From assembly GCA_964499445.1 (NCBI GenBank), contig CAZCLE010000002.1, positions 19,677 through 83,676 on the forward strand: a DNA stretch of 64,000 bases, written 5' to 3'. This document shows, piece by piece, positions 12,892 to 29,134 of this stretch. Below the pieces are notes generated by a model. The model was not told where the DNA came from and searched no databases. It saw nothing but the letters and a program-made list of their open reading frames with translations. Source of the DNA: an uncultured Dehalococcoidales bacterium (lineage in GTDB: Bacteria > Chloroflexota > Dehalococcoidia > Dehalococcoidales > GCA-2688105). The position numbers and the translations under genes are program-made. Every line of letters starts with the position of its first letter. Position 1 is the stretch's first letter.

Positions 12892-14141
12892 TTTGGTATC
12901 TCTCCTTTCCATTTACCGGTGATGGCAGCATTGACGCATTCTTCGTCGGTACCAAAAAAGACTTTGACCTTGCTTACCGTGGCTAGGTAGTGAGCACTTC
13001 GGGCTGAGTTGGTAGCGGCGCTCTTCGCCTGCTTATCGCCGGCGATATCACTGCGGGTGAAGGGATTGTTTATAGATGGGCAGACACATTGGAAATACCC
13101 ACCGGCTTTTTCGATAATGTCGGCCCAACCTTGCCGTCTGGCTAGAGCTTCAACCGGCGCTGAAGCTCCTATTATCATTGTGGTCTTGATTTTTTTGCCC
13201 TCTAATAACTCGGCAACTCGACCTATCTCATCAATGGTGGCATGAGGGCAACCGAAAGCCACGTGCTCCACTATATCATTATCCCAGACGTTTAACCTTT
13301 CCCAGGTTTTGGTCATCTCCTGTTTCCCCACCTTTATCACCTGCTCAGGCCTCTTTTTCCCCAGAGCTGCCTCTAAGGTGGGAGCCTCCGGGGTAGTCCC
13401 TACTATATGAGCCAGGGTTACTGCTCCTGATGTCGGCATTGAGACCACCAGTGCCCGGGCAAAATCGAAAGGAAGGTTAGACGGCAGCCCAGTTATCGCC
13501 ACGGGTTTGAACCCGGGTATCTGGTCGCCAATGTAGTAGCCCAGGCAGTGATAATGAGGAATACCCCAATCGCTTATATCCAGACCATCCAGCTCCGCCA
13601 GGTGACTAGCATATCTATTCTCGGGCAATAGTATGCCCATCAGCGGTGTCCGTCCGCAGACCGCCGCCGCCAGGGAAATCAAAATACCCATCCTGTCTAC
13701 CCTTGCCCCGAACAGGCTGTTATTGGTAACCTGCATACAACTGCCACCCATGGAGACGATATCACCCTTGCGTGGCATGATGCCAATGAGATACTCGGCA
13801 CAGGTCTCGGTGCGCAGCCAGCCCAACTCCAAGTATTTCTTAAGCTTCTTCTCATGTGGGCCTAGCCAGTTGTCAGCCAGGGGTAGTCCCCATTTTTTCC
13901 ATTCTTCGGGGTCGAAGGAAGGATGAGTGGTAACCCGGTGTGGTGTTTTTTTAACCCCCTCAGTCAAAAGGTCCCAGTAATCCACAGGAGAAAAATCGTA
14001 GCTAGTGTGAGCATAAGCGGTTTGAACCAGCTTTTCGGCATCGGCTGATTCGCCTAACTTTATTAATAGGTCTATAGACCTCTGTGTCCCGGGGCCATAT
14101 TCCCCGGCCAGCATCCTTGTCTCTTCATCAGTGAGTAGCAT
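12882..14141 (-). CDS. Aconitase X catalytic subunit (DUF521), copy 1
   Basis: 419 aa. Motifs: LTDEETRMLAGEYG, FGCPH, ATNSARSAHY, AITGKW. It is paralogous to 50453-51727. Confidence 0.8.
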   Translation of the reverse strand: MLLTDEETRMLAGEYGPGTQRSIDLLIKLGESADAEKLVQTAYAHTSYDFSPVDYWDLLTEGVKKTPHRVTTHPSFDPEEWKKWGLPLADNWLGPHEKKLKKYLELGWLRTETCAEYLIGIMPRKGDIVSMGGSCMQVTNNSLFGARVDRMGILISLAAAVCGRTPLMGILLPENRYASHLAELDGLDISDWGIPHYHCLGYYIGDQIPGFKPVAITGLPSNLPFDFARALVVSMPTSGAVTLAHIVGTTPEAPTLEAALGKKRPEQVIKVGKQEMTKTWERLNVWDNDIVEHVAFGCPHATIDEIGRVAELLEGKKIKTTMIIGASAPVEALARRQGWADIIEKAGGYFQCVCPSINNPFTRSDIAGDKQAKSAATNSARSAHYLATVSKVKVFFGTDEECVNAAITGKWKGEIPKWK

Positions 14142-14529: not shown

Positions 14530-15519
14530 GTGATGGCGGTATTGAACCGTCAAAAACCGGACCGTATGCCCTGCTTTACTGCCAACTCGACTATAACCTA
14601 CGACCAAATGGAAAAGGTGGGCGCCTTCTGGCCGGAAGGGCATGAAAAGGCAGAAGCCATGGCTAAACAGGCTATGGCTGCCTATACCGTACTAGGCTTT
14701 GATGTGGTAAGGGCCCCCTTCTGTCAGACCATGGAGGCTGAGGCTCTTGGTTGTCCCATAAAGTCCGGCGGCGAGAAAGGTATCCCCGGTATGGCACATC
14801 CAGAGGCATATTCACTAGATGATACCCCGGTGATTCCCGACGACTTTCTGTCACGGGGGAGAATACCGGAACTACTCAAGGCAATTACAATAATGAAGAA
14901 GGAACTGGGGGATGAGGTACTCATTGAGGGTGGAATTATCGGACCCTTCTCCATTGCCGCTTCTATGTTAGGGGTGACAAAAACACTGAAAGCTACCGTT
15001 AAGGCACCGGATAAGCTTCTCCCCTTCCTGGATGTAGCCGAAAGGGCAGGAACCATGTTAGCCCATGCCCTTATTGATGCCGGCGCCGACATCATCTCCA
15101 ATGAGGATATGAGTGCTTCTCCCGCTATTATAATGCCTAATAGTTACCATGACTTGGTATATGAATTCCAAGTCAAGCAGTTTGCGGAGATAAAGGTTCC
15201 CAAGATACTTCATATCTGTGGTGACGTGGGGCAGACCATAGAGTGGGAGGCGAAGAGCGGCCCCGAAATTTTGAGTATAGAACCTGCCACTGACCTAAAG
15301 AAAGCCAGAGAAAAAGTTGGAGAGAAGCCCATCTTTATGGGCGGGGTAGACACGGCTAATGTATTGTTTATGAAAGATGTAGAAACAGTAAAAGCGGAAT
15401 GCAGAAAGTCTATAGAGGCGGGTATTCAGATATTGGCTCCGGGCTGCGCCGTAGCCCCGGGTACACCCATAGAAAACCTTATGGCTATGGTGGAAGTAGC
15501 CAAAAGTTATACAAGTTAA
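14530..15519 (+). CDS. MtaA/CmuA-type corrinoid methyltransferase (URO-D family), paralog 1
   Basis: 329 aa. Motifs: DRMPCF, Zn ligands LHICGD and APGCAV. The conserved N-terminal KERV motif lies upstream of the called GTG, so the real start may be a non-canonical ATA at 14512 (see findings). Confidence 0.8.
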   Translation: MMAVLNRQKPDRMPCFTANSTITYDQMEKVGAFWPEGHEKAEAMAKQAMAAYTVLGFDVVRAPFCQTMEAEALGCPIKSGGEKGIPGMAHPEAYSLDDTPVIPDDFLSRGRIPELLKAITIMKKELGDEVLIEGGIIGPFSIAASMLGVTKTLKATVKAPDKLLPFLDVAERAGTMLAHALIDAGADIISNEDMSASPAIIMPNSYHDLVYEFQVKQFAEIKVPKILHICGDVGQTIEWEAKSGPEILSIEPATDLKKAREKVGEKPIFMGGVDTANVLFMKDVETVKAECRKSIEAGIQILAPGCAVAPGTPIENLMAMVEVAKSYTS

Positions 15520-15891: not shown

Positions 15892-16071
15892 TGGCTTGAC
15901 AAAAATTTAAGATGTGGTAAAGTAATATACAATTCGCCATCTGACAAAGAATTGAAATGTGGTAGAGTAATATAAAATTAGCCACTTGACAAAAAACTGA
16001 GGTATGGTAAAATAGCGCACAATTTGCCGCTTAACAAAAAACTGAGGTGTGACAGGTTAACATAAGTTTAT
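15892..16071 (+). repeat. Four tandem 45-bp direct repeats, each a -35 / extended -10 promoter-like module
   Basis: The hexamers TTGACA 15896, CTGACA 15941, TTGACA 15986 and TTAACA 16031 have a period of exactly 45 bp. Each is followed after 16 nt by TAAAGT, TAGAGT, TAAAAT or CAGGTT, and these are preceded by TGg (TGa in unit 4). Confidence 0.8.
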
Positions 16072-16169: not shown

Positions 16170-17552
16170 ATGGCTAGAAAACCAACTACTGCAATGGCAT
16201 ATAAGAGCGGCGATGAGATGATTTTCGGAACTACCAAGTTCCCGGTTACCAGCAAGAGGGGAATTAAGTACGGTGGAGGCTATGTCCATCCTACGATAAA
16301 ACCTCATCCCAGACCGGGCACCGAAAAGACCAAGAAGACCCTGATGCGGGAGTATGAAAAGATGAACTTCGATGCCCTGGAAAGAATGGTCATCGTGGGA
16401 CATCCTACTCTTGTGGTCGAGAATGAGCACGTCTTCCAGATGACTCATACCCCCGACTGGGGTGCCGATATCGCCGCCCTGACAGCTAGGATGATGGACG
16501 ATTTGCAGGCTAAATATGGGCTGAAGTCCGCTTATACGGCGACTATAGCCGACCTGCGCAGGCCAGAGAGCGTACACATGCGGACAAGCGATTATACCAA
16601 GGAAATCATTGAATCCTTTAAGGCGTGCTCCAAGTATGCCGACCATGTTTCCATTGAGTCCATGGGTGGTAAGGAAGTATTTGACTATGCCCTCATCCGC
16701 CAGGATATGGCGGGTATTTTATTTGGCATAGGTTATCTGGGCTCTAGAGACATGGAGTGGATGTGGGACCAGATTGTGGCTATTTGTAAGCAGAATAACT
16801 GCATTCCCGGCGGGGACACCAACTGCTCAGAGGCTAACACTGCCATGTTCATGGCAGGGGGTATGACATCCAAGGATGTGCCTCATGTATATGCCGCTCT
16901 AGCCCGTGCTATTTCGGCGGCAAGGACTATGGTAGCCTATGAGTGTGGTGCTACTGGACCTACCAAGGACTGTGCCTATGAGGATCCCATTGTCAAAGCC
17001 ATGACTGGAGTTCCTATCACCACCGAGGGCAAAACTAGTGCTTGCGGGCACTCCGACTTGGCCAGCAACCTGATTGCTGCCGTATGTGACCTTTGGAGCA
17101 ACGAGGCCGTGGAATATCACGATATGTTCGGTGCTACCACTACCTCGGTCTTCGCCGAGATACTCGGTTATGATTGCGCTCAGTTCAACTGCGCCATCGA
17201 CTTGGGTTTGGCGAAAGAGATGCAAACTATCCTGGTCAACTCTGACGCATATCGGGATTCCCACAGCCTGATTCTGGTGCCCGATAATGCCTGGGCGATA
17301 GGTAACGCCATCGTCAGCAACACGGCTAAGGGATACTACACCAGAGCCAGAGCCGGAGCCATGAAGGCAGGTAGTATCATCCTGGCTGATGCCAAGATGA
17401 AATTGACCGCCTTTGAAAAAGATGCCCTAGAGGATGCAATGAAGCAGATGGAGGCTCTGCCCGAGGATGAAGGAACCTTTGTCGATATGTGTATGAAGAA
17501 ATACACGAAGTTAGTGCCAGGCTTTAATCCTGATTCCTATGGATTGAAATAG
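16170..17552 (+). CDS. mtaB: Methanol:corrinoid methyltransferase
   Basis: 460 aa and collinear with my recollection of Methanosarcina MtaB. Motifs: AYKSGDEMIFG, SIESMGGKEVFDYA, GGDTNCSEANTAMF, GPTKDCAYED, EGKTSACGHSD, WSNEAVEYH, NPDSYGL. The Glu/Cys/Cys zinc-ligand contexts are conserved. Strong SD. Confidence 0.9.
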   Translation: MARKPTTAMAYKSGDEMIFGTTKFPVTSKRGIKYGGGYVHPTIKPHPRPGTEKTKKTLMREYEKMNFDALERMVIVGHPTLVVENEHVFQMTHTPDWGADIAALTARMMDDLQAKYGLKSAYTATIADLRRPESVHMRTSDYTKEIIESFKACSKYADHVSIESMGGKEVFDYALIRQDMAGILFGIGYLGSRDMEWMWDQIVAICKQNNCIPGGDTNCSEANTAMFMAGGMTSKDVPHVYAALARAISAARTMVAYECGATGPTKDCAYEDPIVKAMTGVPITTEGKTSACGHSDLASNLIAAVCDLWSNEAVEYHDMFGATTTSVFAEILGYDCAQFNCAIDLGLAKEMQTILVNSDAYRDSHSLILVPDNAWAIGNAIVSNTAKGYYTRARAGAMKAGSIILADAKMKLTAFEKDALEDAMKQMEALPEDEGTFVDMCMKKYTKLVPGFNPDSYGLK

Positions 17553-17690: not shown

Positions 17691-18440
17691 ATGAAATTCT
17701 TGGCTGATTATTCTAATATTTTCAGACGCTACGACCTTGAGACTGAGGTGAAAAAGGAAGCGGCACGTAAAATCTCCAGTGACGCTGCTTTACAAGGGGT
17801 TGGCACTTTAGTTGTTGAAGGCGAAGCGGAAGACATTGAGCCAGCAGTCAAAAAGGCATTAGAGTCCAAAGACCCCATGACTGTTATTACTGATGGACTT
17901 ATCGCTGGCATGAATGAAGTGAGCCGTCTGTGGGATGAGGGCGTTTATTTTCTGCCCCAGGTTATTCTGGCCGCGGATGCCATGAACGCCGGCATCGTCC
18001 TATGCGAGAAGAAGATGGGCAAGCCCATGGCGAGGAAGGGTAAAGTGGTTACCCACACTGCTGAGGGTGATATTCACGACATCGGTCAGATTATCGCCAA
18101 CGCCCTTTTCAATGCTGGTGGTTTTGAAGTTATCAATCTGGGGTGTGATTGTCCGGTAGATACGGTTGTAGCCACAGTTAAGAAGGAGAAACCGCTTCTG
18201 GTTACCGGAACAGCCCTGATGACCACCACTATGACTGCTTTTCCGAAGATTTGCCACCAGCTTCAGGAAGCGGGGATAAACACCCCCTTTATCAGTGCTG
18301 GGGGAGCAGTCGCCGAAGAATGGTCAACCTCTTTTCCGCTGAGTATTTGGGGCAAAGAGGATTCCCAGTCAGTGCCACTGGCTGAAGATGCCCTAGGCGG
18401 TATGAGTTGGGAGGATATGCGGTCAAAGTGGAACGGATAA
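17691..18440 (+). CDS. mtaC: Methanol-type corrinoid protein (B12-binding, His-on)
   Basis: 249 aa. A helical cap domain precedes a Rossmann domain carrying the DxHxxG motif (EGDIHDIGQ). It lies immediately downstream of mtaB. Confidence 0.85.
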   Translation: MKFLADYSNIFRRYDLETEVKKEAARKISSDAALQGVGTLVVEGEAEDIEPAVKKALESKDPMTVITDGLIAGMNEVSRLWDEGVYFLPQVILAADAMNAGIVLCEKKMGKPMARKGKVVTHTAEGDIHDIGQIIANALFNAGGFEVINLGCDCPVDTVVATVKKEKPLLVTGTALMTTTMTAFPKICHQLQEAGINTPFISAGGAVAEEWSTSFPLSIWGKEDSQSVPLAEDALGGMSWEDMRSKWNG

Positions 18441-18461: not shown

Positions 18462-19442
18462 ATGATTGCAGATATTATCTTTGGTTTCTTAGGTTCCGGC
18501 AAAACCACTGTTATCGCCAATATCCTTAAGGAATGGGGGCGGGATGAAAAAATTGTAGTGTTGGTAAATGAGTTCGGCGAGGTGGGCATAGATGGGGACC
18601 TGTTAGCCAGTCAGCACGGTGATGTAGTAGAAATGCCCGCCGGCTGTATCTGCTGCACCCTTCAAGTGGACTTTAGACGCCAAATGCTGGAGATAAGTGA
18701 AACCATCAATCCGCAGAGGGTACTAATTGAGCCCACTGGTGTAGCTCAAATAACCCAAATAATGTACATCATACACGCCGAATTATTCAAGGATAGAATC
18801 GAAGAAATCCATAATATCCTGATTACCGATGCTACCAATTTCATCAATTTTTATCGGCTCAACCGAAATTTCGTTGAGTCGCAGGTAAAAAATGCACATG
18901 TGGTCTTGCTGAACAAATGCGATAGAGTCAAAAAAATACAAGCCGAGGTTACCAAAAACGCTATATCTGCAATCAATCCTCAAGTTCCTGTTCTTTTGAC
19001 TGAGTTTGGGGCAGTGGAGTGGGGCGAATACAAATCAGCCCTCTCCGCTGTCCCTTGTTTGTCAGCGGATTTTGAAGCGGAACCGTCTTCCCCGACAGGG
19101 GAAGTTGAAGAAGAGGGACTTATCCATCTCCACGAGGAGGAAGATACATTAGGCTATGAATCTTTTGGTTGTACTTATGAACTTTCTTTTGATAGGCAGG
19201 AACTGGAAAAGCTGTTTCAAGAGTTGTTAAATTCTACCCTTTTGGGCGAGGAAATAGTTAGAGCCAAAGGAATATTCAGGGTAGATAACAAATGGGTAGT
19301 GGGACAACTCGCCTCAGGAGAAGTTTCCTGGCAAGAAGTTAAAGGTGTCAAACAGAGTAAAATCTCAATAGTCGGGAGAAACCTAAAAAGGGAACTGATT
19401 GGGACCGCGGTCAACCGATGTTTAGCCGGGATTAGCGGTTAG
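18462..19442 (+). CDS. CobW/COG0523-family G3E GTPase (metallochaperone-like)
   Basis: 326 aa. P-loop GFLGSGKTT, the CxCC motif in AGCICCTL, NKCD, and a C-terminal CobW_C-like domain. It starts 21 nt after mtaC. Confidence 0.85.
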   Translation: MIADIIFGFLGSGKTTVIANILKEWGRDEKIVVLVNEFGEVGIDGDLLASQHGDVVEMPAGCICCTLQVDFRRQMLEISETINPQRVLIEPTGVAQITQIMYIIHAELFKDRIEEIHNILITDATNFINFYRLNRNFVESQVKNAHVVLLNKCDRVKKIQAEVTKNAISAINPQVPVLLTEFGAVEWGEYKSALSAVPCLSADFEAEPSSPTGEVEEEGLIHLHEEEDTLGYESFGCTYELSFDRQELEKLFQELLNSTLLGEEIVRAKGIFRVDNKWVVGQLASGEVSWQEVKGVKQSKISIVGRNLKRELIGTAVNRCLAGISG

Positions 19443-19658
19443 AAGGTCATTTCCTAATCTGTTACCACTCTGTGTTGCCGACGGGATAGGAGCGGCAAGC
19501 TTGCTCGGAGGAATCTTTAGAGGATTCAAAGCAAAGTTCGAGCAAGGACAGGGTTGTTTATTATAAGTACTCAGTTGGATTGAGGTTCGTCACTGGTTTG
19601 GAATTGAAAGTCAAGTGACATAAAATTTTCAATCCAACAAGAAAAGGAGGGAAGGAAA

Positions 19659-20168
19659 ATGGCAATACCAGTACTTATGGCAATTAGCCTTATGTGGATA
19701 CCTGTAGGATTGCTTAACCTGGGTAAAGGAGAAGCCAAGGGGACAGGTGCCCTTACCCTTATGGTGGGCACAGTCGTGATCATAGGCGCAATCATTCAGG
19801 CAACCATTTTCAAGGATCCGTGGATTGGCGCCCTGCTCTTCACATACGGCCTCTTTTACAGTATCGTCGGTTACGCCCTATTTACCGAACAGAAAGACAT
19901 TAAGTTCGTAGGCAACGCCAGTATTACGGTAGGACTAATATCCATTGGCTACATAATTCTCTGTTTAGCCGGCCCCGCTGCTTTAAGAAGCAACTTCCTG
20001 GCGCTGGCTTGCGCTGGATACCTGGTCCTCTATATCATGGTCTGGGGCAACGCATACGGCTGGCTCTCGGGCAAGATCACAGGTGTGTCACTCATCGTGT
20101 GGACGTTTGTGGGTCTCTTTGTCCCTGCCTTCTGGCTGGTGGCTACGGGTCAGTTGCCGTGGGCATAA
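19659..20168 (+). CDS. Small six-helix membrane protein, AmiS/UreI-like channel family (tentative)
   Basis: 169 aa. Helix pattern and segments (LLNLGKGEAKGTGALTLMVG, GALLFTYGLFY, GKITGVSLIVWTFVGLFVPAFWLVATGQ) resemble my recollection of the AmiS and UreI sequences. Strong SD. Confidence 0.5.
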   Translation: MAIPVLMAISLMWIPVGLLNLGKGEAKGTGALTLMVGTVVIIGAIIQATIFKDPWIGALLFTYGLFYSIVGYALFTEQKDIKFVGNASITVGLISIGYIILCLAGPAALRSNFLALACAGYLVLYIMVWGNAYGWLSGKITGVSLIVWTFVGLFVPAFWLVATGQLPWA

Positions 20169-20209
20169 GCGGCGGATTTGTTCTTATTTAGAGCAACAAG
20201 TGTAACAAG

Positions 20210-20570: not shown

Positions 20571-21206
20571 ATGGCTGGAGAACAAAAATATGAAGAGTTC
20601 CGTCCCCTTGAAGAGGAAGATTTGCTTAATTATCTTCCAGATGTGAGCTACAGTGAATGTGGGGCGGACAGCGATGTGGAATATGCCGAACTGGTAATTG
20701 AAGGCAAAGCCATGCCTTCTAAATGTCCCATACTGGACGAAAAAATTGCGGCCGCGATGGAAAAAGTGTTTAAGCTTGAACTCCCTTCAATACCCGATAC
20801 CGCACCAGGGACACCGGTCAACTGTGGTATCATAAAAGTTGGAAATCCAACCGCTGATTCTATGGTACTGATAAACGGAAATTGTCAGGAAACTATTTCC
20901 GTCATAAAGTTTATCCTTGAAGAAACTCAAACCGATGCCTTTTTATTAGCCATAGATACCCAGGGCTACAGCATAGAGAATGCGCTGGCGGCAGGAATCT
21001 TTCAGCCTTCCGAAGTTTTTAAATCACTCGGCGAATCAGGGCTAGCCAATGAAATTAGCCATCGGAAGGTCATTCTTCCCGGATTGTGCGAGCCTTTGGC
21101 TGCGGATATTAAAAGGTTAGCCTCGTGGGATTGGGAGGTCACATTAGGTCCGGTTAGCGCCCTTGAATTGCCACTCTATCTCATAAAAATGGCTCAAGAG
21201 GCTTAA
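20571..21206 (+). CDS. Truncated CFeSP large-subunit (AcsC/CdhE)-like corrinoid-binding protein with a degenerate N-terminal Fe-S motif
   Basis: 211 aa. The N-terminus LPDVSYSECGADSDVEYAELVIEGKAMPSKCP parallels the LPxxNCGxCGxxTCxxFA...CP Fe-S domain but keeps only 2 of 4 Cys. The C-terminus FLLAIDTQGYSIENALAAGIF...SHRKVILPGL...WEVTLGPVSALELPLYL parallels the AcsC/HgcA corrinoid domain. No TIM-barrel middle domain is present. Confidence 0.6.
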   Translation: MAGEQKYEEFRPLEEEDLLNYLPDVSYSECGADSDVEYAELVIEGKAMPSKCPILDEKIAAAMEKVFKLELPSIPDTAPGTPVNCGIIKVGNPTADSMVLINGNCQETISVIKFILEETQTDAFLLAIDTQGYSIENALAAGIFQPSEVFKSLGESGLANEISHRKVILPGLCEPLAADIKRLASWDWEVTLGPVSALELPLYLIKMAQEA

Positions 21207-21337: not shown

Positions 21338-21928
21338 TTACAATTTGACCCCGATGAGAATAGTCCCCAAGCCTCGCTGATCAAGCCCTTCAAAATAGCC
21401 TTTCTTCAAAAATATATCACAAGGCGTGGTAGGCGTACCGTAAGTAATAGAATGATATGAAAAATCGCTTTCTTCCAGGACACGCCATTCTGCCGAGCCG
21501 CACGGAATCTCAAAATGGCACAACTTTTTCATGATATCCTGGGGGAAAGATATCTTGTCCTTGTAAATAACAAAATTTTTGTGCATAAACCAGACATTTT
21601 CCTTTTGGGACAGACTGGCGATGGTTTCTTCATCATGAACCTCTTCGCCCACCACCTCATCGCCCTTTCTTAAAATCAGGGAACAAGAGCCCCACTCAAA
21701 CTCCATGTCAGTTAGGGCTACATAGATTAAATCATAAGTTAAGACTTCTCTTACCCCGACGTTGACGACCTTACCCATACCCATCAAGGAGTGCTTTTCG
21801 GCATCCTCCTCGATGCCAAGGACCTCCTGCCTGTCTTTTTCGAGAAGAGGGCTGACGTCCACAATCCCCTTCACCTTTTTCAAGGCGGCTATCATCAGGG
21901 TATTTGCCCTCATCCGGTCTATGGTCAT
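21338..21928 (-). CDS. Hypothetical protein, no recognised domain, coupled to the RamA-like activase
   Basis: I prefer the ATG at 21928 (MTIDRMRANTL...), which is preceded by GGAGGAGAA. That start lies 26 nt downstream of the activase stop. Cys pattern CHFEIPCG...PCD. Confidence 0.55.
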   Translation of the reverse strand: MTIDRMRANTLMIAALKKVKGIVDVSPLLEKDRQEVLGIEEDAEKHSLMGMGKVVNVGVREVLTYDLIYVALTDMEFEWGSCSLILRKGDEVVGEEVHDEETIASLSQKENVWFMHKNFVIYKDKISFPQDIMKKLCHFEIPCGSAEWRVLEESDFSYHSITYGTPTTPCDIFLKKGYFEGLDQRGLGTILIGVKL

Positions 21929-21954
21929 TTCTCCTCCGACGCTGAACATCTACT

Positions 21955-23619
21955 TTATCGGACTTTAACTCCAGAGGTAAGCAGTTTAGTCAGGTCGAAC
22001 ACCTTTTCACTACAGGCCTGTTCACATCTACTACAGCCCATACCATCACATAGAGCCAGGTCAATGGTGATGCTAAAACCCTCCTCTTGCTCATCCTGGG
22101 AGAGGGCGTTCTCGGGGCATCTCTCGATGCACTCCTCGCAGCCGATACAGCCCTCGAAAATGATTCTTTTCAGTTCTCCGATGTCGGGAATAATCTTCAG
22201 TCCTTTAACCCCTAAATCGGGTATGTCTCTCTCCACAGTCTTAATAACCTGGGGAAGCTCACTGACCTCCTCCAGAGGGGGGAGCCCGTATCTTTTAAGA
22301 AATTGTTGATAGGTTTTCCAGGGCATACCCTCAGTCCAGAAAGACATTTCAAGCATGTAGACCTGCTTAAAAACTTCGGACTCGGCAAACATGCAGTGGT
22401 TTTGGCGCAGCTCAGTGGCCATCTTTTGCATGTTCCACAGTTCATCCACGTTTTTGACCATATCTCTGGACATAGCTAGAGAGGTATTTCCCACCTGGAA
22501 AACTCTCTTAACACTTGATGGTATCATGCCTATTTGCTGGGACTTCAGGGCATCAACATAGGTTCCGGAGGCGCCAGACATATAAGCCGTTTCTATTTTA
22601 CTCACATCTATGCCGGCTGCCTGGCAAAGGGCTACATGCCCGGCCCTGACCGCACCAATAGCCTTACCCGCCTCCGTAACATCGTGTTCGGTAAACTTGA
22701 TGCCGTTGGCAAGTTTAATTTCACCGTCTCCGGTACTGATTTTGGGAAGTTTAATCAGACCGGCCTTTAGTCCCTGGCTGAGTAAGGCAACCACTCCAGT
22801 GCCGGTAATGCCCACCGCCTCTAAGTCTCCTTTCTCCAGGACTTTTCCCGAACTGGGGACCACCTTATCCCCTTTTTGGACAAACATATCCTGGTCGAGG
22901 ATATAACACTGAAGTCCGCCTCCAGGAGAGCTTGTGTCGGGGAAATAATACTCGACATCAGAGATGGCGCCGGGGAGAGCTAAAAGCCCGTCTTCAATCT
23001 GTTGCCCTTCCAGGGCAGGCCCGGCAGCCGTGGAGCCGGTATAGACGACTCCCTCTACTATGAGGGACATTTCGTTGTTAGTACCGTAGTCGGTGACAAT
23101 GGAGATTTCCTCTCTTTCCAGCGCACCTGCCTGAATCATCATGGCTAGGGCGTCGGCTCCGATCTCGTGGCGGACCGCCGGTGGCACCAATATGTCTACG
23201 CCGGCTGGCAGGTCAAGACCTCTGATATCCCGGGACTTAAATATTTTGGCGTCTCTATTTGGAGGAACCACCCCCAGAGCTTCCAATTTTCGTTTCCCGG
23301 CATAGGCCAGGTCTCTTATCTCAATTTCCCTGAAAAGAGAAAGCTGGATAGGGTTGCCGCAGACAGCGGCTCGTATCACGTCGTTTTTTTCGATTCTAAG
23401 GTTGTCAATAACCCGGTTGACGGCATGAATAACTACATCGTGGGAGATTTCCAGTCCGACCTCCAGGGCAAAATGTAGGTGGTCGATTACATTGGCTCCT
23501 GGTAGGGGGTGTCGGGTGGTAATGGCAGTAGAGATTATTTTATTCCCGTTCTCCAGATCAATGGCTTGCCCTCTGAAGCCGCTGGTTCCTAAATCAAGGG
23601 CTATACCTAGTTTTCCCAT
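21955..23619 (-). CDS. RamA-type corrinoid reductive activase (ASKHA/DUF4445 with C-terminal 2x[4Fe-4S] ferredoxin domain)
   Basis: 554 aa. ASKHA phosphate-1 motif GIALDLGTSGFRG. The C-terminal CIGCEECIERCP and CDGMGCSRCEQAC motifs match the domain order described for Methanosarcina RamA (COG3894). Confidence 0.8.
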   Translation of the reverse strand: MGKLGIALDLGTSGFRGQAIDLENGNKIISTAITTRHPLPGANVIDHLHFALEVGLEISHDVVIHAVNRVIDNLRIEKNDVIRAAVCGNPIQLSLFREIEIRDLAYAGKRKLEALGVVPPNRDAKIFKSRDIRGLDLPAGVDILVPPAVRHEIGADALAMMIQAGALEREEISIVTDYGTNNEMSLIVEGVVYTGSTAAGPALEGQQIEDGLLALPGAISDVEYYFPDTSSPGGGLQCYILDQDMFVQKGDKVVPSSGKVLEKGDLEAVGITGTGVVALLSQGLKAGLIKLPKISTGDGEIKLANGIKFTEHDVTEAGKAIGAVRAGHVALCQAAGIDVSKIETAYMSGASGTYVDALKSQQIGMIPSSVKRVFQVGNTSLAMSRDMVKNVDELWNMQKMATELRQNHCMFAESEVFKQVYMLEMSFWTEGMPWKTYQQFLKRYGLPPLEEVSELPQVIKTVERDIPDLGVKGLKIIPDIGELKRIIFEGCIGCEECIERCPENALSQDEQEEGFSITIDLALCDGMGCSRCEQACSEKVFDLTKLLTSGVKVR

Positions 23620-24070: not shown

Positions 24071-24754
24071 ATGGCTTCAGAGGAGAGAGCTAAGGAATTA
24101 TTTAAAGGACTTCAGGAGGCGGTGATAATCTGGGATGAGGACAAAGTAGTGGAGCTTTGCCACGCTGTCATAGATGAAGGCGTAGACCCCTATGACGCCA
24201 CCATGGATGGTCTGGCGGCTGGAATGCAGGCGGTAGGCGACCTGTATGAAAAGAAGGAATACTTTGTCCCAGAACTTCTGATGTGCGCCGATGCGCTGTA
24301 TGCCGGGTTGGACCTCCTAAAGCCGGCTATCGTTGCCTCAGGAAGAAAGTCAAAGGTAAAAGGGTCAGTAGTCATCGGTGTTGTTGAGGGCGATGTTCAC
24401 GACATCGGCAAGAACTTAATCAAGATGATGTTTGATGTTGCCGGCTGGAATGTCTTTGACCTGGGAAAGGACGTAGAACTGAGTAGGTTTGTGGAGGAGC
24501 AAATAAAGACCGATTCTGAAATTGTGGCTATGTCAGCTATGATGACGACCTCCATGATGGGCATGCCCAAGGTCATTGAGATGATAAAGGCGAAAAATCC
24601 CAAGTGTCGCATCATGATAGGTGGCGCTCCGATAACCACCGATGTGGCGAAAAAATATGATGCTGACGGATACGCTGAGAGTGCCGCAACCGCAGTTGAG
24701 GAAGCGATGAAACTGATTGAAATGTTAAGGAAAGAAGAGGCAGCGGCAAAGTAA
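24071..24754 (+). CDS. Cobalamin-binding corrinoid protein (MtxC / O-demethylase CP type)
   Basis: 227 aa. A B12-binding-2 cap helix bundle precedes a Rossmann domain with DxHxxG (EGDVHDIGKN) and MSAMMTTSM. Confidence 0.85.
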   Translation: MASEERAKELFKGLQEAVIIWDEDKVVELCHAVIDEGVDPYDATMDGLAAGMQAVGDLYEKKEYFVPELLMCADALYAGLDLLKPAIVASGRKSKVKGSVVIGVVEGDVHDIGKNLIKMMFDVAGWNVFDLGKDVELSRFVEEQIKTDSEIVAMSAMMTTSMMGMPKVIEMIKAKNPKCRIMIGGAPITTDVAKKYDADGYAESAATAVEEAMKLIEMLRKEEAAAK

Positions 24755-24894
24755 AAAAATAAAATCACAAAAGGCAAAATACAAAGATGATATGGTACTA
24801 AGACAGATATAAAATGAATCAGGGGATTGGATGAGTGCGATGCGTAGTAGTCATCCGCTAGATCGAATCCCCTTTATTTGGAAAGGGAGGAAAT

Positions 24895-26853
24895 ATGGCA
24901 GAAAGCACAAATCAAGAGCATGTGGTCATCTTTCAACCGTCGGGACGTAGAGGCTCCATCAGTGATGGGAAAAACCTCAAGGAGGCTTCCGTAGCACTGG
25001 GTGTGGACATAGAAGGCGTCTGTGGTGAAAAGGCTACCTGCGGCAAGTGTAAGGTTAGGATAGAAGACGGGTTCTTCGAGAAATACGGTGTTGAATCAAA
25101 GATGAGCAATCTCACTCCGCTAACAGAAGCGGAGAGAAAGTTTATCAACGCACATGCGGAGAAAGAAGGTTACCGACTGGCTTGTCAGGCTTGGATTAAA
25201 GGTGATGTTGTGGTCTTCGTCCCTGAGGAGAGCCGAATGGGAAAGCAGGTTGTGCGCAAAGCGGCGAGGGAGATAGACATCGAGCTGAACCCGGCGGTGA
25301 AGAAATACTATGTGGAACTAGCTAAGGCTACCTTGAATGATACCTTGGGCGACTGGGAGCGTATACAGGCCGAGCTTAATAAACGTTTTGGCTTGAGCAA
25401 TCTAACCATTGACTATCAGGTGCTCCTGGAAGAACAGAAAATAGTACGTCAGGGCAATTGGAAGGTGACCGTATCAGTCTGGATGGATAAAGAGGTCATC
25501 AAGATAGAGCCCGGGCTTGTGGAGAAAGGCTATGGTCTGGCAGTCGACATTGGCACCACCACGGTAGCTGGCTACCTCTGCGATCTGTCCAGTGGCGAGA
25601 TAGTAGCCACCGAGTCTATGATGAATCCGCAAGTGCTTTACGGCGAAGATGTGATGTCCCGCATCACTTATAATATGAGCCACGACGACGGCTTGGAGCT
25701 GATGGCCCGGGAGATTATTAAGGGTCTTAATCAGATTGCGGGGCGAGCCGCTGCTCAGGCAAACATCAAGCGGCGGGATATCGTTGACATGACCGTTGTC
25801 GGCAATACTTGCATGCATCATCTCTTTTTAGGTATTGATACCCACCATATCGGTATGGCTCCTTTTCCCCCGAGCCTACATCACTCTATAGATGTTAAGG
25901 CGCGCGACTTGGACCTCAAGATATCTCCAGGGGCTTACGTTCATGTGCTTCCCATTGAGGCTGGTTTCGTAGGGGCTGATAATGTAGGGGTGCTCATCAC
26001 AGAGGCGCCCTATAATCAGGATGCTATGGAGCTTATTATCGACATTGGCACCAATGGTGAGTTAATCCTGGGCAACCGGCAAAAGCTCATTTCTTCCTCC
26101 TGTGCCACCGGCCCAGCCTTCGAGGGAGCCGAGATGAAATACGGAATGCGCGCCGCCCCGGGGGCTATCGAAAGGATAGCGATAGACCCGGATACTAAAG
26201 AGGTGAGCTTCAAGGTTATCGGTAAGGAGGAGTGGAGCACGGAGTCGGAGGATATGGGGGCTAACGGTATTTGCGGCTCAGGGATAATTGATGTCGTCCC
26301 CCAATTGTTCAAGGCGGGTATTATCAACCACACCGGTCGCTTCAACAAGGATTTGACTACCCCCCGTTTCCGTGAGACTGAAGAGGGAGGAGAATTCATA
26401 ATCGCTTGGGCAAATGAAACCTCCATTAGCCAAGATATCGTAATTTGCCAGAGTGACATAAGGAACATACAGCTAGCCAAAGGGGCTATGTATGCCGGAG
26501 CCAAGCTGATGATGCGTCACCTGGGTCTGGAGAAAGTGGACAAGGTTATTCTAGCCGGAGCCTTCGGCAGCTACATCGATAAGGAATCAGCGGCATGCTT
26601 GGGTCTTTTCCCTGATTGTGATTTAGAGAATGTCTACGCTGTGGGTAACGCCGCCGGTGATGGCGCCCGCATAGCCCTCCTCAATGTGGATAAACGAAGG
26701 GAAGCTGACGAAATGGCAAGGCAGGTGGAATACATAGAATTAACTGTGGAACCGGATTTTGACAAGGTTTTTGGCGAAGCTATGTGGCTACCTCACATGA
26801 AGGACAAGTTCCCTCACATTGAGCACCTTCTCCCTGAGAAGGCGGTGAAATAA
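24895..26853 (+). CDS. RACo-type corrinoid reductive activase (N-terminal plant-type [2Fe-2S] ferredoxin plus ASKHA/DUF4445)
   Basis: 652 aa. Motifs: CGEKATCGKCKV...LACQA (2Fe-2S), GLAVDIGTTTVAGYL, and ASKHA motifs further on. Confidence 0.85.
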   Translation: MAESTNQEHVVIFQPSGRRGSISDGKNLKEASVALGVDIEGVCGEKATCGKCKVRIEDGFFEKYGVESKMSNLTPLTEAERKFINAHAEKEGYRLACQAWIKGDVVVFVPEESRMGKQVVRKAAREIDIELNPAVKKYYVELAKATLNDTLGDWERIQAELNKRFGLSNLTIDYQVLLEEQKIVRQGNWKVTVSVWMDKEVIKIEPGLVEKGYGLAVDIGTTTVAGYLCDLSSGEIVATESMMNPQVLYGEDVMSRITYNMSHDDGLELMAREIIKGLNQIAGRAAAQANIKRRDIVDMTVVGNTCMHHLFLGIDTHHIGMAPFPPSLHHSIDVKARDLDLKISPGAYVHVLPIEAGFVGADNVGVLITEAPYNQDAMELIIDIGTNGELILGNRQKLISSSCATGPAFEGAEMKYGMRAAPGAIERIAIDPDTKEVSFKVIGKEEWSTESEDMGANGICGSGIIDVVPQLFKAGIINHTGRFNKDLTTPRFRETEEGGEFIIAWANETSISQDIVICQSDIRNIQLAKGAMYAGAKLMMRHLGLEKVDKVILAGAFGSYIDKESAACLGLFPDCDLENVYAVGNAAGDGARIALLNVDKRREADEMARQVEYIELTVEPDFDKVFGEAMWLPHMKDKFPHIEHLLPEKAVK

Positions 26854-26871
26854 GCTCCGGGAGGTATATTA

Positions 26872-27807
26872 TTGATGCTTAAATATGACTTGAAACAAAA
26901 GGTCTGTAACATTGGTGGTGTGAAAGTAGGCGGTCAGCCGGGAGAGAATCCCCCTCTTCTAATCGGCAATATGTTCCAGAAGGGGGACATACTCATTGAG
27001 AGCCGGAAGGAGCGCAAGTTCAACAAGGAGGGAGCTAAGGAGCGCATCCACGAGATGGAGCGCCTCTCCCAGGAGACAGGTGTGCCCGGCTTGGTAGGCA
27101 TGGTCGCTAACGCTCTAGATGAAGTAAAGACTTATGTGGACTTTTTTACCAGCGTGACCAAGATGCCTTTTGCCATTGATATCTGGGTGCAGAAGACGAG
27201 ACTAGCCGCAGCCCGCTATGTGGCTGAGCTAGGGCTCCAGGACCGATTACTTTACAACAGCATCACCCCCTGGGACGAGGACATCGAAGCCCAGGTGGCG
27301 GAACTCAAGGAACTGGGTATCAAGCATGTTGTAATTCAGGCGTTTGATGTAGAGGATATGGGGCCCCGAGGCAGGGTCTCGTCACTCAAGAAGTTGCTAC
27401 CTATGGTGGAGAAGGGGAATTTTGAGAGCATCTTGGTGGACACAGCGGTAATGGGCTTACCGCTGACCGCCTTCTCGTTGATAGGCAATCGTCTGGTCAA
27501 GGAGGAGTTTGGACTACCGGTGGGCTGTGCTCCCTCCAACGGCACCTACATGTGGAAGAAAGCTGTGGGAGCGGAGGGCGCAAGCAAGTTCCCGCCTGTG
27601 GATGCTGCTATAGAGGCAATAACCGCTATGGGAAGCGACTTTATTTTCTATGGTCCCATGACCGGCACCGGCAGGGTCTTCGCTGCGGTGGCTGCCGCTA
27701 TCAGCCTGCTTGCCACCTGGGCTTATGACGAGGGAGCACCCTTACCCACTGAGGGTCACCCTTTGAATCTACTCTTCCCTGAGGTAGTAGAGCAATTATC
27801 AAAATAA
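26872..27807 (+). CDS. mtrH: MtrH-family methyl-corrinoid:pterin methyltransferase
   Basis: 311 aa. N-terminal GGVKVGGQPGENPPLLIGNMF matches the MtrH signature FGGQPGE. The rest is collinear with my recollection of MtrH. The start could instead be the ATG at 26875. Confidence 0.8.
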   Translation: MMLKYDLKQKVCNIGGVKVGGQPGENPPLLIGNMFQKGDILIESRKERKFNKEGAKERIHEMERLSQETGVPGLVGMVANALDEVKTYVDFFTSVTKMPFAIDIWVQKTRLAAARYVAELGLQDRLLYNSITPWDEDIEAQVAELKELGIKHVVIQAFDVEDMGPRGRVSSLKKLLPMVEKGNFESILVDTAVMGLPLTAFSLIGNRLVKEEFGLPVGCAPSNGTYMWKKAVGAEGASKFPPVDAAIEAITAMGSDFIFYGPMTGTGRVFAAVAAAISLLATWAYDEGAPLPTEGHPLNLLFPEVVEQLSK

Positions 27808-27827
27808 GAAGGGGGAAAGAAATAATT

Positions 27828-28916: not shown

Positions 28917-28932
28917 AGATAGCTAACGCCTG

Positions 28933-29085
28933 GGGTGTTAATGCTGTCACATGGCCGGAGTGTGATATCGGGTTAACTATGCCCAAGTAAAGCATGGAAG
29001 TGCTAATGGCAGCGATGAGGAAATGCGTTAAGCTCGGGTAATCGCTGCTAAAATTTGCCAGCATTGCTTTAGTCATATTGCCCTA
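28933..29085 (+). pseudogene. 3'-terminal remnant of a URO-D methyltransferase paralog plus its downstream non-coding tail
   Basis: About 150 nt align by eye at roughly 85% to 30067-30215, the last 35 codons of paralog 3 plus 45 nt after its stop. Conceptual translation GVNAV.WPECDIGLTMPK*SMEVLMAAMRKCVKLG* carries an indel and an internal stop. Confidence 0.6.
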
Positions 29086-29134
29086 AGATATGCTAAACCG
29101 CATATTTGAGATATAGTATGCAGAAAGGAATAGT

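What the first reader, a model, noticed from the sequence alone, without database searches (positions are those of the whole stretch)
19659..20168. AmiS/UreI-like six-helix channel inside the methanol operon: candidate pore for methanol or another small uncharged solute
This 169-aa all-helical membrane protein follows mtaB-mtaC-cobW on the same strand and has its own strong SD. Several segments resemble the AmiS/UreI family as I recall it, for example GKITGVSLIVWTFVGLFVPAFWLVATGQ versus the UreI and AmiS C-termini. That family forms channels for urea and short-chain amides. No urease or amidase gene is nearby, while the neighbours metabolise methanol. A repurposed small-solute channel feeding MtaB is a plausible and untested idea.
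Basis: partly seen in the sequence, partly recalled or inferred. Interest (0 to 1): 0.65.

Follow-up and report, generated by a model that had tools for sequence, protein, structure and literature searches.

The report
UreI-fold channel in methanol operons
A small six-helix membrane protein with the fold of the Helicobacter urea channel, but with a rebuilt pore, is a near-constant member of bacterial methanol-methyltransferase gene clusters, which makes it the best current candidate for a dedicated methanol channel in anaerobes, though this is still untested.

Summary
The ORF is real: 19659-20168 (+), 169 aa, GGAGG 8 nt upstream, after mtaB-mtaC-cobW. The AmiS/UreI resemblance holds but is distant. 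The protein scores below Pfam's cut-off (21.3 vs 25 bits), yet 35 of 36 homologues hit PF02293. An AlphaFold model (pLDDT 93) matches only H. pylori UreI (TM 0.84).

It belongs to a compact, isolated clade: 61 hits among 1.84 billion representatives. In this clade the family-wide pore signature is rewritten. The TM5 tryptophans W146/W149/W153 become C118/Y121/Y125 (Y125 is T in most of the clade). L13 and E177 become W13 and W148. Y88 is kept as Y67.

Urease, amidase and dimethylformamidase genes are absent from the window and 160 related loci. The gene lies inside mta clusters in about 24 of 80 species (Chloroflexota, Desulfobacterota, Bacillota), always co-oriented, in four gene orders. In reverse, 18 of 21 long MtaB-selected metagenomic loci carry it. 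Sister clades sit beside an ErcA-like alcohol dehydrogenase and sensor module, or beside an Hdr/molybdoenzyme cluster.

Best reading: a repurposed urea/amide-family channel for methanol or another small alcohol. The substrate is inferred, not shown. It is a new variant of a known kind, of moderately high interest.

The parts
19659..20168 (+). Gene for the 169-aa six-helix UreI-fold channel protein, the subject of the finding.
   Evidence: ORF. Pfam PF02293: 21.3 bits, full length. AF2 model pLDDT 93.4 with six helices. Foldseek match to HpUreI, TM 0.84. 285 homologues.
19646..19650 (+). Shine-Dalgarno GGAGG, 8 nt upstream of the ATG.
   Evidence: Read directly from the sequence.
19598..19626 (+). 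Weak sigma-70-like promoter match (TTGGAA-17-TAAAAT) in the 216-nt cobW-channel spacer. It could be a promoter of the channel gene's own. This is a consensus match only.
   Evidence: 9 of 12 matches. The number of such sites in the region does not exceed the shuffled expectation.
20154..20175 (+). Weak terminator-like hairpin overlapping the stop codon, followed by ATTTGTTCTT. The next gene starts 402 nt downstream.
   Evidence: consensus scan, not above the shuffled expectation.
14530..15519 (+). mtaA-type (URO-D family) methylcobamide methyltransferase. It co-occurs with the channel gene.
   Evidence: PF01208, E 3e-64. On the same strand as the channel in 18 of 18 context-A loci.
16170..17552 (+). 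mtaB, the methanol:corrinoid methyltransferase. This is the enzyme the channel is proposed to feed.
   Evidence: PF12176, E 1e-194. NCBIfam MtaB_Meth 645 bits, below the 720-bit equivalog cut-off. Co-oriented with the channel in 20 of 20 loci.
17691..18440 (+). mtaC-type corrinoid protein.
   Evidence: PF02607 and PF02310. NCBIfam MtaC models score 230-241 bits, below their cut-offs. Co-oriented in 21 of 21 loci.
18462..19442 (+). CobW/COG0523 G3E GTPase, a putative metallochaperone. It is the channel gene's closest conserved neighbour.
   Evidence: PF02492, E 5e-40, plus CobW_C. Median distance to the channel gene is 228 bp, co-oriented in 20 of 20 loci.
20571..21206 (+). Small protein with a CdhD/HgcA-like corrinoid-type domain and an N-terminal Fe-S motif. 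It recurs in some mta clusters.
   Evidence: PF03599, E 1.5e-11. NCBIfam hits are below cut-off. Found in 8 of 80 loci.
21338..21949 (-). Conserved hypothetical protein with no Pfam or NCBIfam match. It travels with the mta/RACo cluster.
   Evidence: No families found. Found in 16 of 80 loci, next to RACo.
21955..23619 (-). RACo-type reductive activase of corrinoid proteins, with a C-terminal 2x[4Fe-4S] domain.
   Evidence: PF14574, E 9e-59, plus PF17651 and Fer4. Found in 20 of 80 loci.

Best explanation
The gene encodes an inner-membrane channel of the urea/amide channel (AmiS/UreI) superfamily. It has a six-helix bundle with the pore running through each protomer, and by analogy with UreI it probably assembles as a hexamer. 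It belongs to a compact, sequence-isolated clade in which the solute-selecting constrictions have been rebuilt. In the window's organism and its relatives the gene is part of the methanol:corrinoid methyltransferase operon (mtaA, mtaB, mtaC, a CobW GTPase and a RACo activase).

The most likely function is passive, bidirectional conduction of methanol, or a similarly small uncharged alcohol or C1 solute, across the cytoplasmic membrane. This would let cytoplasmic MtaB be supplied at the very low ambient methanol concentrations of anoxic sediments.

Status of each step:
- Shown: fold, clade membership, pore substitutions, and conserved co-oriented synteny in both directions.
- Inferred: that it conducts anything, that the solute is methanol, and that it forms a hexamer.

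The confidence of 0.5 is for the whole statement, including the methanol or short-alcohol substrate. The part 'channel of the AmiS/UreI superfamily with an altered filter' alone I rate at about 0.9.
For: Fold and family. 35 of 36 homologues hit PF02293. HpUreI is the best PDB sequence hit for the clade profile. hhalign aligns 144 columns collinearly (E 0.0011). The AF2 model (pLDDT 93.4, pTM 0.87) matches only HpUreI (TM 0.84/0.78).

Pore. The mapping of UreI pore residues is identical in hhalign and in three MAFFT modes. The residues that form the two UreI constrictions are taken from PMC3863980. They are conserved in UreI, in amidase-linked AmiS, in a dimethylformamidase-linked Paracoccus protein and in a Bacillus protein. 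In this clade they are replaced: W146 to C, W149 to Y, W153 to Y or T, L13 to W, and E177 to W. The essential Tyr88 is kept as Y67.

Loss of the canonical partners. There were no tblastn hits for urease, aliphatic amidase or dimethylformamidase in 1.96 Mb, covering the window and 160 related loci.

Forward synteny. mtaB, mtaC and cobW lie near the gene in about 24 of 80 species. These include Dehalococcoidales, Desulfobacteraceae, Desulfatiglandales, Desulfomonilaceae, Syntrophaceae, a Chloroflexia MAG and Dethiobacter. The genes are always on the same strand, and there are four different gene orders.

Reverse synteny. 18 of 21 MtaB-selected loci with at least 4 kb on both sides carry the gene, and 29 of 33 with at least 2.5 kb.

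Tree and signatures. Mta-linked proteins fill the basal clades of the tree. They carry their own signature: F66 in 24 of 24 and M127 in 21 of 24, against L66 and E127 in the other contexts.

Co-evolution. Mirror-tree correlation with MtaB is r = 0.57 and with MtaC r = 0.60, Mantel p <= 0.001.

Independent link to alcohols. A sister clade in Geobacteraceae, Desulfuromonadales, Anaeromyxobacter and Contendobacter sits beside an Fe-ADH. That ADH's best NCBIfam match is the ethanol-sensing ErcA, and its closest solved structure is an NAD-dependent methanol dehydrogenase. A histidine kinase, a sigma-54 regulator and a porin-like protein are also present.

Decayed clusters. In L059, L065 and L007 the channel ORF is intact while mtaB and cobW are reduced to fragments. 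In L059 the ErcA-like module lies directly downstream.
Against: - There is no functional data of any kind.
- Methanol crosses lipid bilayers quickly (general knowledge), so a channel may give little benefit except at very low concentrations.
- The target is below Pfam's gathering score, and the hhalign probability is only 20%.
- A third clade (context B) lies next to an HdrABC-like/molybdopterin oxidoreductase cluster, MoaA and an Amidohydro_2 protein, with no alcohol enzyme in sight. The clade as a whole is therefore not methanol-specific.
- Three long MtaB loci lack the gene (L133, L137, L138).
- Papers on cultured methanol users mention no such gene: D. kuznetsovii and Moorella. A channel is therefore not required for Mta-dependent growth.
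- The mirror-tree correlation can reflect shared history alone.
- The 216-nt gap and the promoter-like site upstream leave co-transcription with mtaBC-cobW unproven in this window.
Confidence: 0.5

Rival explanations
1. It is a general channel for small neutral solutes such as water, ammonia, formamide, urea or formic acid, with no specificity for methanol. It sits in mta clusters only because the whole cluster has been inherited and transferred as a block.
For: HpUreI conducts water about 10,000 times faster than urea in simulations (PMC3863980), so family pores are not strictly selective. Clade members occur in three unrelated contexts and as stand-alone genes, for example in Desulfospira joergensenii among MFS transporters and a porin. 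A mirror-tree correlation is expected from co-inheritance alone.
Against: The gene has been retained through four rearrangements of the cluster and across three phyla, always co-oriented. 86-88% of long MtaB-selected loci carry it. Mta-linked proteins have their own fixed residues, F66 and M127. Both filter constrictions have been rebuilt, which suggests a change of solute and not loss of selectivity.
Confidence: 0.2
2. It works with the neighbouring CobW-type GTPase in metal or cofactor supply (Zn2+ or Co2+ for MtaB, MtaA and MtaC), acting as a metal-conducting pore and not a substrate channel.
For: CobW is the closest conserved neighbour, at a median of 228 bp. In the other contexts the adjacent gene is also metal- or cofactor-related: MoaA in context B and an SCO4226-like nickel-responsive protein in context C. 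Cys118 is nearly invariant, and His63 is present in most of the clade, both at the position of the periplasmic constriction.
Against: The fold is that of a neutral-solute channel. No conserved acidic residue maps to either constriction in Mta-linked proteins, and position 127 is Met where other contexts have Glu. The window's own clade has Tyr in place of His63. Decayed loci keep the channel intact while cobW is reduced to a fragment. In the paradigm Helicobacter operon, ureI also sits with a G3E GTPase of the same Pfam family (UreG, PF02492), yet it carries the substrate and not nickel.
Confidence: 0.1
3. It acts as a sensor or co-sensor, a 'trigger' channel that reports alcohol availability to the adjacent sigma-54 two-component system, and does not supply bulk substrate.
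For: In the Desulfobacteraceae-type arrangement the gene is followed directly by a sigma-54 response regulator (cobW-channel-RR-mtaB). In context C it neighbours an ErcA-like ADH, a histidine kinase and a sigma-54 regulator, which resembles the Pseudomonas ErcA/ErcS ethanol-sensing pair.
Against: The window and the other Dehalococcoidales loci have the channel but no such regulator within the cluster. The protein has only short loops and no extra-membrane domain that could contact a kinase. No member of the family is known to signal.
Confidence: 0.1
4. It is an outward valve for a small toxic or volatile by-product of C1 metabolism, for example formaldehyde, and not an uptake route.
For: Channels are bidirectional. 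Several clusters include oxidative-stress genes such as rubrerythrin and a flavodiiron-like protein. Context B contains a formate-dehydrogenase-like molybdoenzyme.
Against: The MtaB reaction releases only water. Nothing in the mta cluster produces formaldehyde. The synteny is with the substrate-activating enzyme.
Confidence: 0.07

Closest known systems
HpUreI, the acid-gated urea channel of Helicobacter pylori (PDB 3UX4, 6NSJ, 6NSK; Pfam PF02293; Urea/Amide Channel family)
   Same: Six-helix twisted bundle of about the same length. The structures superpose at TM 0.84/0.78. The sequences are collinear over 144 columns. Leu6, Gly17, Gly85 (G64), Tyr88 (Y67), Leu152 (L124) and Pro185 (P156) are conserved. 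The gene sits in an operon with the enzyme that consumes the solute and with a G3E GTPase chaperone.
   Different: Only about 19% identical. It lacks the long histidine-rich periplasmic loop used for acid gating: its loops are 4-8 residues long. The Trp146/Trp149/Trp153 ladder and Glu177 are replaced by Cys, Tyr, Tyr and Trp, and Leu13 becomes Trp. No urease is present.
AmiS, the putative short-chain amide channel of aliphatic amidase operons (Pseudomonas aeruginosa amiEBCRS; here the Mycolicibacterium and Rhodococcus examples)
   Same: Same Pfam family and predicted topology. It has short loops and no acid gate, and it is co-operonic with the cytoplasmic enzyme that uses the solute.
   Different: 17-21% identical. 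AmiS keeps the UreI-type pore (L6, V9, L13, F84, Y88, W146, W149, L152, W153), whereas this clade does not. AmiS is adjacent to an aliphatic amidase, and this clade never is.
EccD-like transmembrane domain (PF19053)
   Same: It gives a slightly better Pfam score for the target than AmiS_UreI: 24.6 bits, E 1.4e-5, over residues 5-158.
   Different: The score is below the cut-off of 30 bits. Only 7 of 36 homologues hit it, against 35 of 36 for PF02293. It matches less than half of a 339-position model. No EccD structure appears among the fold matches. I treat it as a compositional match between hydrophobic helices.
Other channels for small solutes that already cross membranes (Amt/Rh ammonia channels, aquaglyceroporins): a comparison of function only
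   Same: They are precedents for cells investing in channels for small, already membrane-permeant molecules in order to scavenge them at low concentration (general knowledge).
   Different: The folds are unrelated, and no homology is claimed.

Membership tests
AmiS/UreI (Pfam PF02293; Urea/Amide Channel family) | Sequence match to the family HMM at or above the curated gathering score. | tested here: inconclusive
   The target scores 21.3 bits against a cut-off of 25 (E 3.1e-4), covering 5-163 of 166 model positions. 35 of 36 clade members hit at E <= 0.01, best 1.2e-10. Most homologues carry a precomputed PF02293 hit, and NCBI names one of them 'AmiS/UreI family transporter'. In the other direction, the clade profile retrieves no canonical member at E <= 1e-3 from 1.84 billion representatives.
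AmiS/UreI (Pfam PF02293; Urea/Amide Channel family) | Six-transmembrane-helix bundle with the UreI fold. | tested here: met
   AF2 gives pLDDT 93.4 and six helices. Foldseek gives 6nsj_A at TM 0.84/0.78 and 3ux4_A at TM 0.81/0.76. These are the only matches with E <= 0.002, and the next has E 0.27.
AmiS/UreI (Pfam PF02293; Urea/Amide Channel family) | Conserved pore-lining signature: Leu6, Val9, Leu13, Phe84, Tyr88, Trp146, Trp149, Leu152 and Trp153, which form the two constrictions (PMC3863980). | tested here: not met
   Only L6, I9 (for V9), Y67 (for Y88) and L124 (for L152) are retained. F84 becomes Y or H, W146 becomes C, W149 becomes Y, W153 becomes Y or T, and L13 becomes W. The UreI, AmiS, Paracoccus and Bacillus branches all keep the signature.
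AmiS/UreI (Pfam PF02293; Urea/Amide Channel family) | Genomic linkage to a urease or an amidase/formamidase whose substrate the channel carries. | tested here: not met
   tblastn with urease alpha, urease beta-gamma, UreG, two aliphatic amidases and a dimethylformamidase gave no hits in the window plus 160 related loci, 1.96 Mb in all. Positive controls show the linkage in canonical members.
AmiS/UreI (Pfam PF02293; Urea/Amide Channel family) | Homohexameric assembly around a central lipid plug. | not testable with these tools
   Only a monomer could be predicted, and no coordinates or multimer modelling were available.
AmiS/UreI (Pfam PF02293; Urea/Amide Channel family) | Conducts urea or short-chain amides. 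| not testable with these tools
   This needs flux assays.
UreI subfamily (acid-activated urea channels) | Glu177 in the cytoplasmic constriction, and a histidine-bearing periplasmic loop for proton gating. | tested here: not met
   E177 becomes W148, which is invariant across the clade. The periplasmic loops are 4-8 residues long and contain no His.
EccD-like transmembrane domain (PF19053) | HMM match above the gathering score over the roughly 11-TM domain. | tested here: not met
   24.6 bits against a cut-off of 30, covering model positions 7-157 of 339. Only 7 of 36 homologues hit it.

The most novel reading that the evidence does not exclude
This clade would be the first dedicated channel for methanol or other short alcohols. 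It would be a urea/amide-channel fold whose selectivity filter was re-engineered: the TM5 Trp ladder swapped for Cys, Tyr and Tyr, with new Trp residues on TM1 and TM6. It would then have been recruited as a standard component of bacterial methanol:corrinoid methyltransferase operons, with sister clades serving alcohol-dehydrogenase/alcohol-sensing modules. Uptake, and not only enzyme affinity, would then shape competition for methanol in anoxic sediments.
Probability: 0.4. Interest if true: 0.78.

Novelty: new variant of a known kind. Interest (0 to 1): 0.62.

Why it matters
Methanol is a key non-competitive substrate in anoxic sediments. Its uptake is normally assumed to be free diffusion, and a 2021 review of anaerobic methanol conversion never mentions a transporter (PMC8048578). 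A conserved channel gene inside mta operons of Dehalococcoidales, several Desulfobacterota families and some Bacillota would mean that membrane passage is under selection at environmental, sub-micromolar concentrations.

It would also give three practical things:
- A genomic marker that separates this bacterial type of Mta system from others.
- A natural example of how the UreI/AmiS filter can be retuned to a different solute.
- A candidate part for engineering synthetic methylotrophs.

The hypothesis can be tested directly with flux assays already established for HpUreI.

Tried and rejected
- NCBIfam gave no hit for the target.
- Rfam found no known RNA element at 11-30 kb at E <= 0.1, so there is no riboswitch in the 216-nt and 402-nt spacers.
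- The promoter and terminator scans were no better than shuffled sequence.
- The EccD match was rejected as compositional.
- Literature searches for any link between AmiS/UreI and methanol, mta genes, corrinoid proteins, Geobacter or alcohol dehydrogenase found nothing relevant. Papers on methanol metabolism in D. kuznetsovii and Moorella mention no such gene.
- The contexts of the most divergent representatives (P0245, P0248, P0253) were on contigs too short to be informative.
- The 45-bp promoter-like tandem array upstream of mtaB was not found in relatives, so it is not part of the conserved system.
- The idea that CobW adjacency implies metal transport was weighed and down-rated.
- I could not inspect model coordinates. 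Pore-facing assignments therefore rest on homology to the published UreI pore residues, not on geometry in the model.
Full report
**1. Observation**

The window has an ATG ORF at 19659-20168 on the + strand, encoding 169 aa, with GGAGG 8 nt upstream of the start. It follows these genes on the same strand:
- mtaB at 16170-17552 (PF12176, E 1e-194).
- An mtaC-type corrinoid protein at 17691-18440.
- A CobW/COG0523 GTPase at 18462-19442.
- Further upstream, an mtaA-type URO-D methyltransferase at 14530-15519.

Downstream lie a small CdhD/HgcA-like protein, a conserved hypothetical and a RACo-type activase. Between cobW and the ORF there is a 216-nt spacer containing a weak promoter-like site. A weak hairpin overlaps the stop codon, and a 402-nt spacer follows. 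Neither signal exceeds the shuffled expectation, and Rfam finds no known RNA element. The rest of the 64-kb window encodes no urease, aliphatic amidase or formamidase.

**2. Is it AmiS/UreI-like?**

On its own the protein is sub-threshold for PF02293 (21.3 bits against a cut-off of 25; E 3e-4), although the match spans 5-163 of 166 model positions. An equally weak EccD match is also present, and NCBIfam gives nothing.

The protein has 285 homologues at E <= 1e-3. Of 36 aligned members (A1), 35 hit PF02293 (best E 1.2e-10), while only 7 hit EccD. The clade profile's best PDB sequence hit is HpUreI, weakly but collinearly (E 0.2). hhalign against a 24-sequence UreI alignment (A2) aligns 144 columns with E 0.0011 and probability 20%.

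An AlphaFold2 model built on A1 is confident (pLDDT 93.4, pTM 0.87) and has six helices. Its only significant structural matches are HpUreI: 6nsj at TM 0.84/0.78 and 3ux4 at TM 0.81/0.76. The next hit has E 0.27. The fold assignment is therefore secure, and the sequence relationship is real but remote.

An exhaustive hmmsearch of 1.84 billion 50%-identity representatives with the clade profile found only 61 hits at E <= 1e-3, about a dozen of them full-length. No canonical AmiS/UreI protein was among them. The clade is compact and isolated.

**3. The pore is rebuilt**

PMC3863980 lists the residues of the two HpUreI constrictions:
- Periplasmic constriction: Leu6, Val9, Phe84, Trp146, Trp149.
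- Cytoplasmic constriction (the selectivity filter): Val9, Leu13, Tyr88, Trp153, Glu177.

hhalign and three MAFFT strategies give the same mapping onto the window protein:

| HpUreI | Window protein |
|---|---|
| L6 | L6 |
| V9 | I9 |
| L13 | W13 |
| F84 | Y63 |
| Y88 | Y67 |
| W146 | C118 |
| W149 | Y121 |
| L152 | L124 |
| W153 | Y125 |
| E177 | W148 |
| P185 | P156 |

Across 81 clade sequences, W13, Y67, Y121, L124, W148 and P156 are invariant, and C118 is present in 79 of 81. Positions 63 and 125 co-vary: Y/Y in the window's sub-clade and H/T elsewhere.

For comparison I fetched annotated canonical genes:
- AmiS directly upstream of an aliphatic amidase in Mycolicibacterium and in Rhodococcus.
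- A Paracoccus member beside an N,N-dimethylformamidase.
- A Bacillus member.

All of these, like UreI, keep L6, V9 (S in Bacillus), L13, F84, Y88, W146, W149, L152 and W153. Only E177 is specific to UreI. The TM5 Trp ladder is therefore a family-wide hallmark that this clade has lost completely, while gaining Trp on TM1 and TM6. The Tyr that is essential for guiding urea is kept.

The loops are short and carry no histidine gate. Lys residues cluster in the loops that are cytoplasmic in UreI, which is consistent with the same topology (read from the sequence). That these residues face the pore is inferred by homology, because I could not inspect the model's coordinates.

**4. Genomic context, forward direction**

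A scan of one genome per species returned 80 loci. tblastn with the window's proteins found mtaB near the homologue in 24 loci, cobW in 24, mtaC in 22, and mtaA and RACo in 20 each.

After filtering for hits covering at least 50% of the query, every one is on the same strand as the channel gene: mtaB 20 of 20, mtaC 21 of 21, cobW 20 of 20, mtaA 18 of 18. Median distances are 228 bp for cobW, 1.3 kb for mtaC and 1.8 kb for mtaB.

The taxa are Dehalococcoidales (the closest relatives, so the window is probably from that order), Desulfobacteraceae, Desulfatiglandales, Desulfomonilaceae, Syntrophaceae, a Chloroflexia MAG, and Dethiobacter and other Bacillota.

There are four gene orders:
- mtaB-mtaC-cobW-channel.
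- mtaA-mtaC-cobW-channel-sigma54 regulator-mtaB-RACo.
- mtaA-mtaC-mtaB-channel-cobW-hypothetical-RACo.
- mtaB-mtaC-cobW-RACo-channel-mtaA.

In an NJ tree the Mta-linked proteins fill the basal clades almost exclusively. They are set apart by F66 (24 of 24) and M127 (21 of 24), where the other contexts have L66 and E127.

**5. Genomic context, reverse direction**

Eighty metagenomic loci were selected only for encoding an MtaB 69-91% identical to the window's. The channel gene is present in 18 of the 21 with at least 4 kb on both sides of mtaB, and in 29 of the 33 with at least 2.5 kb. It is co-oriented in all 43 loci where it was found. Three long loci lack it, and two show only partial hits.

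Pairwise-distance (mirror-tree) correlations between the channel and MtaB, MtaC, CobW, MtaA and RACo are r = 0.46-0.60, with Mantel p <= 0.001. This is consistent with inheritance and transfer as a unit, but it does not by itself prove functional coupling.

**6. Other contexts in the clade**

Context C covers about 14-21 loci in Geobacteraceae, Desulfuromonadales, Anaeromyxobacter and Ca. Contendobacter. It contains:
- A porin-like protein (signal peptide and C-terminal aromatic residue, no Pfam hit), an SCO4226-like protein, the channel, and a SHOCT-domain protein.
- Beside them, an Fe-dependent alcohol dehydrogenase, a histidine kinase and a sigma-54 response regulator.

The ADH's best NCBIfam match is ErcA, the 'alcohol dehydrogenase-like regulatory protein' (417-482 bits, below the 550-bit cut-off). 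Its closest solved structure is an NAD-dependent methanol dehydrogenase (8zrl, E 6e-81). ErcA and ErcS form an Fe-ADH plus kinase pair in the Pseudomonas ethanol-oxidation regulon (PMC12997753).

Context B covers about 17 Desulfobacterota loci. It contains MoaA, the channel and an Amidohydro_2 protein, lying divergent from an HdrA/HdrB/HdrC-like, ferredoxin and formate-dehydrogenase-like molybdoenzyme cluster. FIST, transglutaminase-like, AAA-ATPase and Pup-ligase genes follow. This context has no evident link to alcohols, which limits how far the clade's substrate can be generalised.

**7. Natural experiments**

In L059 and L065 (Syntrophaceae) an intact channel ORF is flanked by only the last ~85 codons of mtaB and the first ~52 codons of cobW. 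In L059 the ErcA-like ADH, the kinase and the sigma-54 regulator follow directly. In L007 a cobW C-terminal fragment precedes the intact gene and a truncated sigma-54 activator follows it. The channel therefore outlives both MtaB and CobW, and in one case remains next to an alcohol module. That argues against an obligate partnership with CobW.

The canonical Helicobacter operon is ureAB-ureI-ureE-ureF-ureG-ureD, and UreG belongs to the same G3E GTPase Pfam family as CobW. Having a substrate channel, a metalloenzyme and a G3E chaperone in one operon is thus the family's precedent, and it does not point to metal transport.

**8. Mechanism and confidence**

Shown:
- A UreI fold.
- A distinct clade.
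- Both constrictions replaced, with Tyr67 kept.
- Loss of urease and amidase linkage.
- Tight, co-oriented synteny with mta genes in both directions.
- A second, independent linkage to an alcohol dehydrogenase/sensor module.

Inferred:
- That it is an open channel and a hexamer.
- That in mta operons the solute is methanol.

My rough estimate, from general knowledge and not from a tool, is that passive diffusion of methanol into a 1-micrometre cell at or below 1 micromolar gives on the order of 10^4 molecules per second. A channel could therefore matter at sediment concentrations, but the same high bilayer permeability is also the main argument against needing one.

I put about 0.9 on 'channel of the AmiS/UreI superfamily with an altered filter', and about 0.45-0.5 on 'physiological solute is methanol or a short alcohol'.

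**9. Novelty**

Databases already label close homologues 'AmiS/UreI family transporter', so the family assignment is not new. Four full-text searches, including one with 'UreI', 'AmiS', 'methanol' and 'MtaB' and one with 'UreI family' and 'corrinoid', 'methanol', 'alcohol dehydrogenase', 'Geobacter' or 'Desulfobacter', found no paper linking the family to methanol, corrinoid methyltransferases or alcohol genes. A review of anaerobic methanol conversion does not mention a transporter. The library covers only open-access papers and preprints, so prior mention elsewhere cannot be excluded.

I classify this as a new variant of a known kind: the same fold, but a different filter, different enzyme partners and probably a different solute.

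Noticed in passing
window 15895-16051 (+), upstream of mtaB: A 45-bp unit is repeated 3.5 times. Each copy carries a near-consensus TTGACA, a 16-nt spacer and TGgTAAAgT (an extended -10), giving an array of three to four tandem promoter-like units about 120-270 nt upstream of the mtaB start. No comparable array was found upstream of mtaB in about 80 related loci.
   Followed up: partly
window 21338-21949 (-); e.g. L020:15970-16557: A conserved protein of about 200 aa with no Pfam or NCBIfam match travels with the mta/RACo cluster. It was found in 16 of 80 loci, usually directly before or after the RACo-type activase. Its function is unknown.
   Followed up: partly
window 20571-21206 (+); e.g. 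L046:2241-3026: A small protein combines an N-terminal Cys-rich RnfB-like Fe-S motif with a CdhD / ACDS-gamma / HgcA-like corrinoid-binding-type domain. It recurs in several mta clusters (8 of 80 loci), and all family scores are far below the equivalog cut-offs.
   Followed up: partly
L015, L016, L024, L027, L056, L057, L077, L080, L084 and others (context B), around locus position 10001: In about 17 Desulfobacterota species the channel homologue sits between MoaA and an Amidohydro_2 protein. These lie divergent from a cluster of a 1086-aa HdrA-GltD-like fusion, HdrB-like (CCG), HdrC-like, ferredoxin and a cytoplasmic formate-dehydrogenase-like molybdoenzyme. FIST, transglutaminase-like, proteasomal-type AAA ATPase and Pup-ligase genes follow. 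The metabolic role of this conserved cluster is unclear.
   Followed up: partly
L019, L021, L029, L033, L039, L042, L058, L064, L067, L068 and others (context C): In Geobacteraceae and Desulfuromonadales a porin-like protein, an SCO4226-like protein, the channel and a SHOCT-domain protein form an operon. It lies next to an ErcA-like Fe-ADH, a histidine kinase and a sigma-54 regulator. This looks like an alcohol-sensing or uptake module spanning both membranes.
   Followed up: partly
L059:2548-3730, L065:1980-2970, L007:9459-11399: These appear to be decayed mta clusters. Fragments of mtaB (aa 376-459) and cobW (aa 1-52 or 243-326), and a truncated sigma-54 activator, flank an intact channel ORF. 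They could be genuine pseudogenes or MAG assembly artefacts.
   Followed up: partly
window 24071-30172 (+): A second corrinoid methyltransferase system lies a few kb downstream: a corrinoid protein, a full-length RACo with a 2Fe-2S domain, an MtrH-family methyltransferase and three URO-D-type methyltransferases (27828-28916, 29135-30172, plus the mtaA-type at 14530-15519). Its substrate is unknown.
   Followed up: no
window 52756-55843 (+) and 30434-34569: An Fe-dependent alcohol dehydrogenase lies directly upstream of a tungsten-type aldehyde:ferredoxin oxidoreductase (AFOR). Cobalamin salvage and biosynthesis genes are at 31-35 kb (CobA/BtuR, CbiA/CobQ-type amidotransferase, a BtuF-like periplasmic binding protein). 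Two AcnX pairs are at 12487-14141 and about 50453-52140.
   Followed up: no
L022:13931-14158 and six other context-A loci: A 75-aa Cys-rich ORF (CxxC...CxxC, zinc-ribbon-like) with no Pfam hit recurs between mtaB and RACo in Desulfobacteraceae-type clusters.
   Followed up: no
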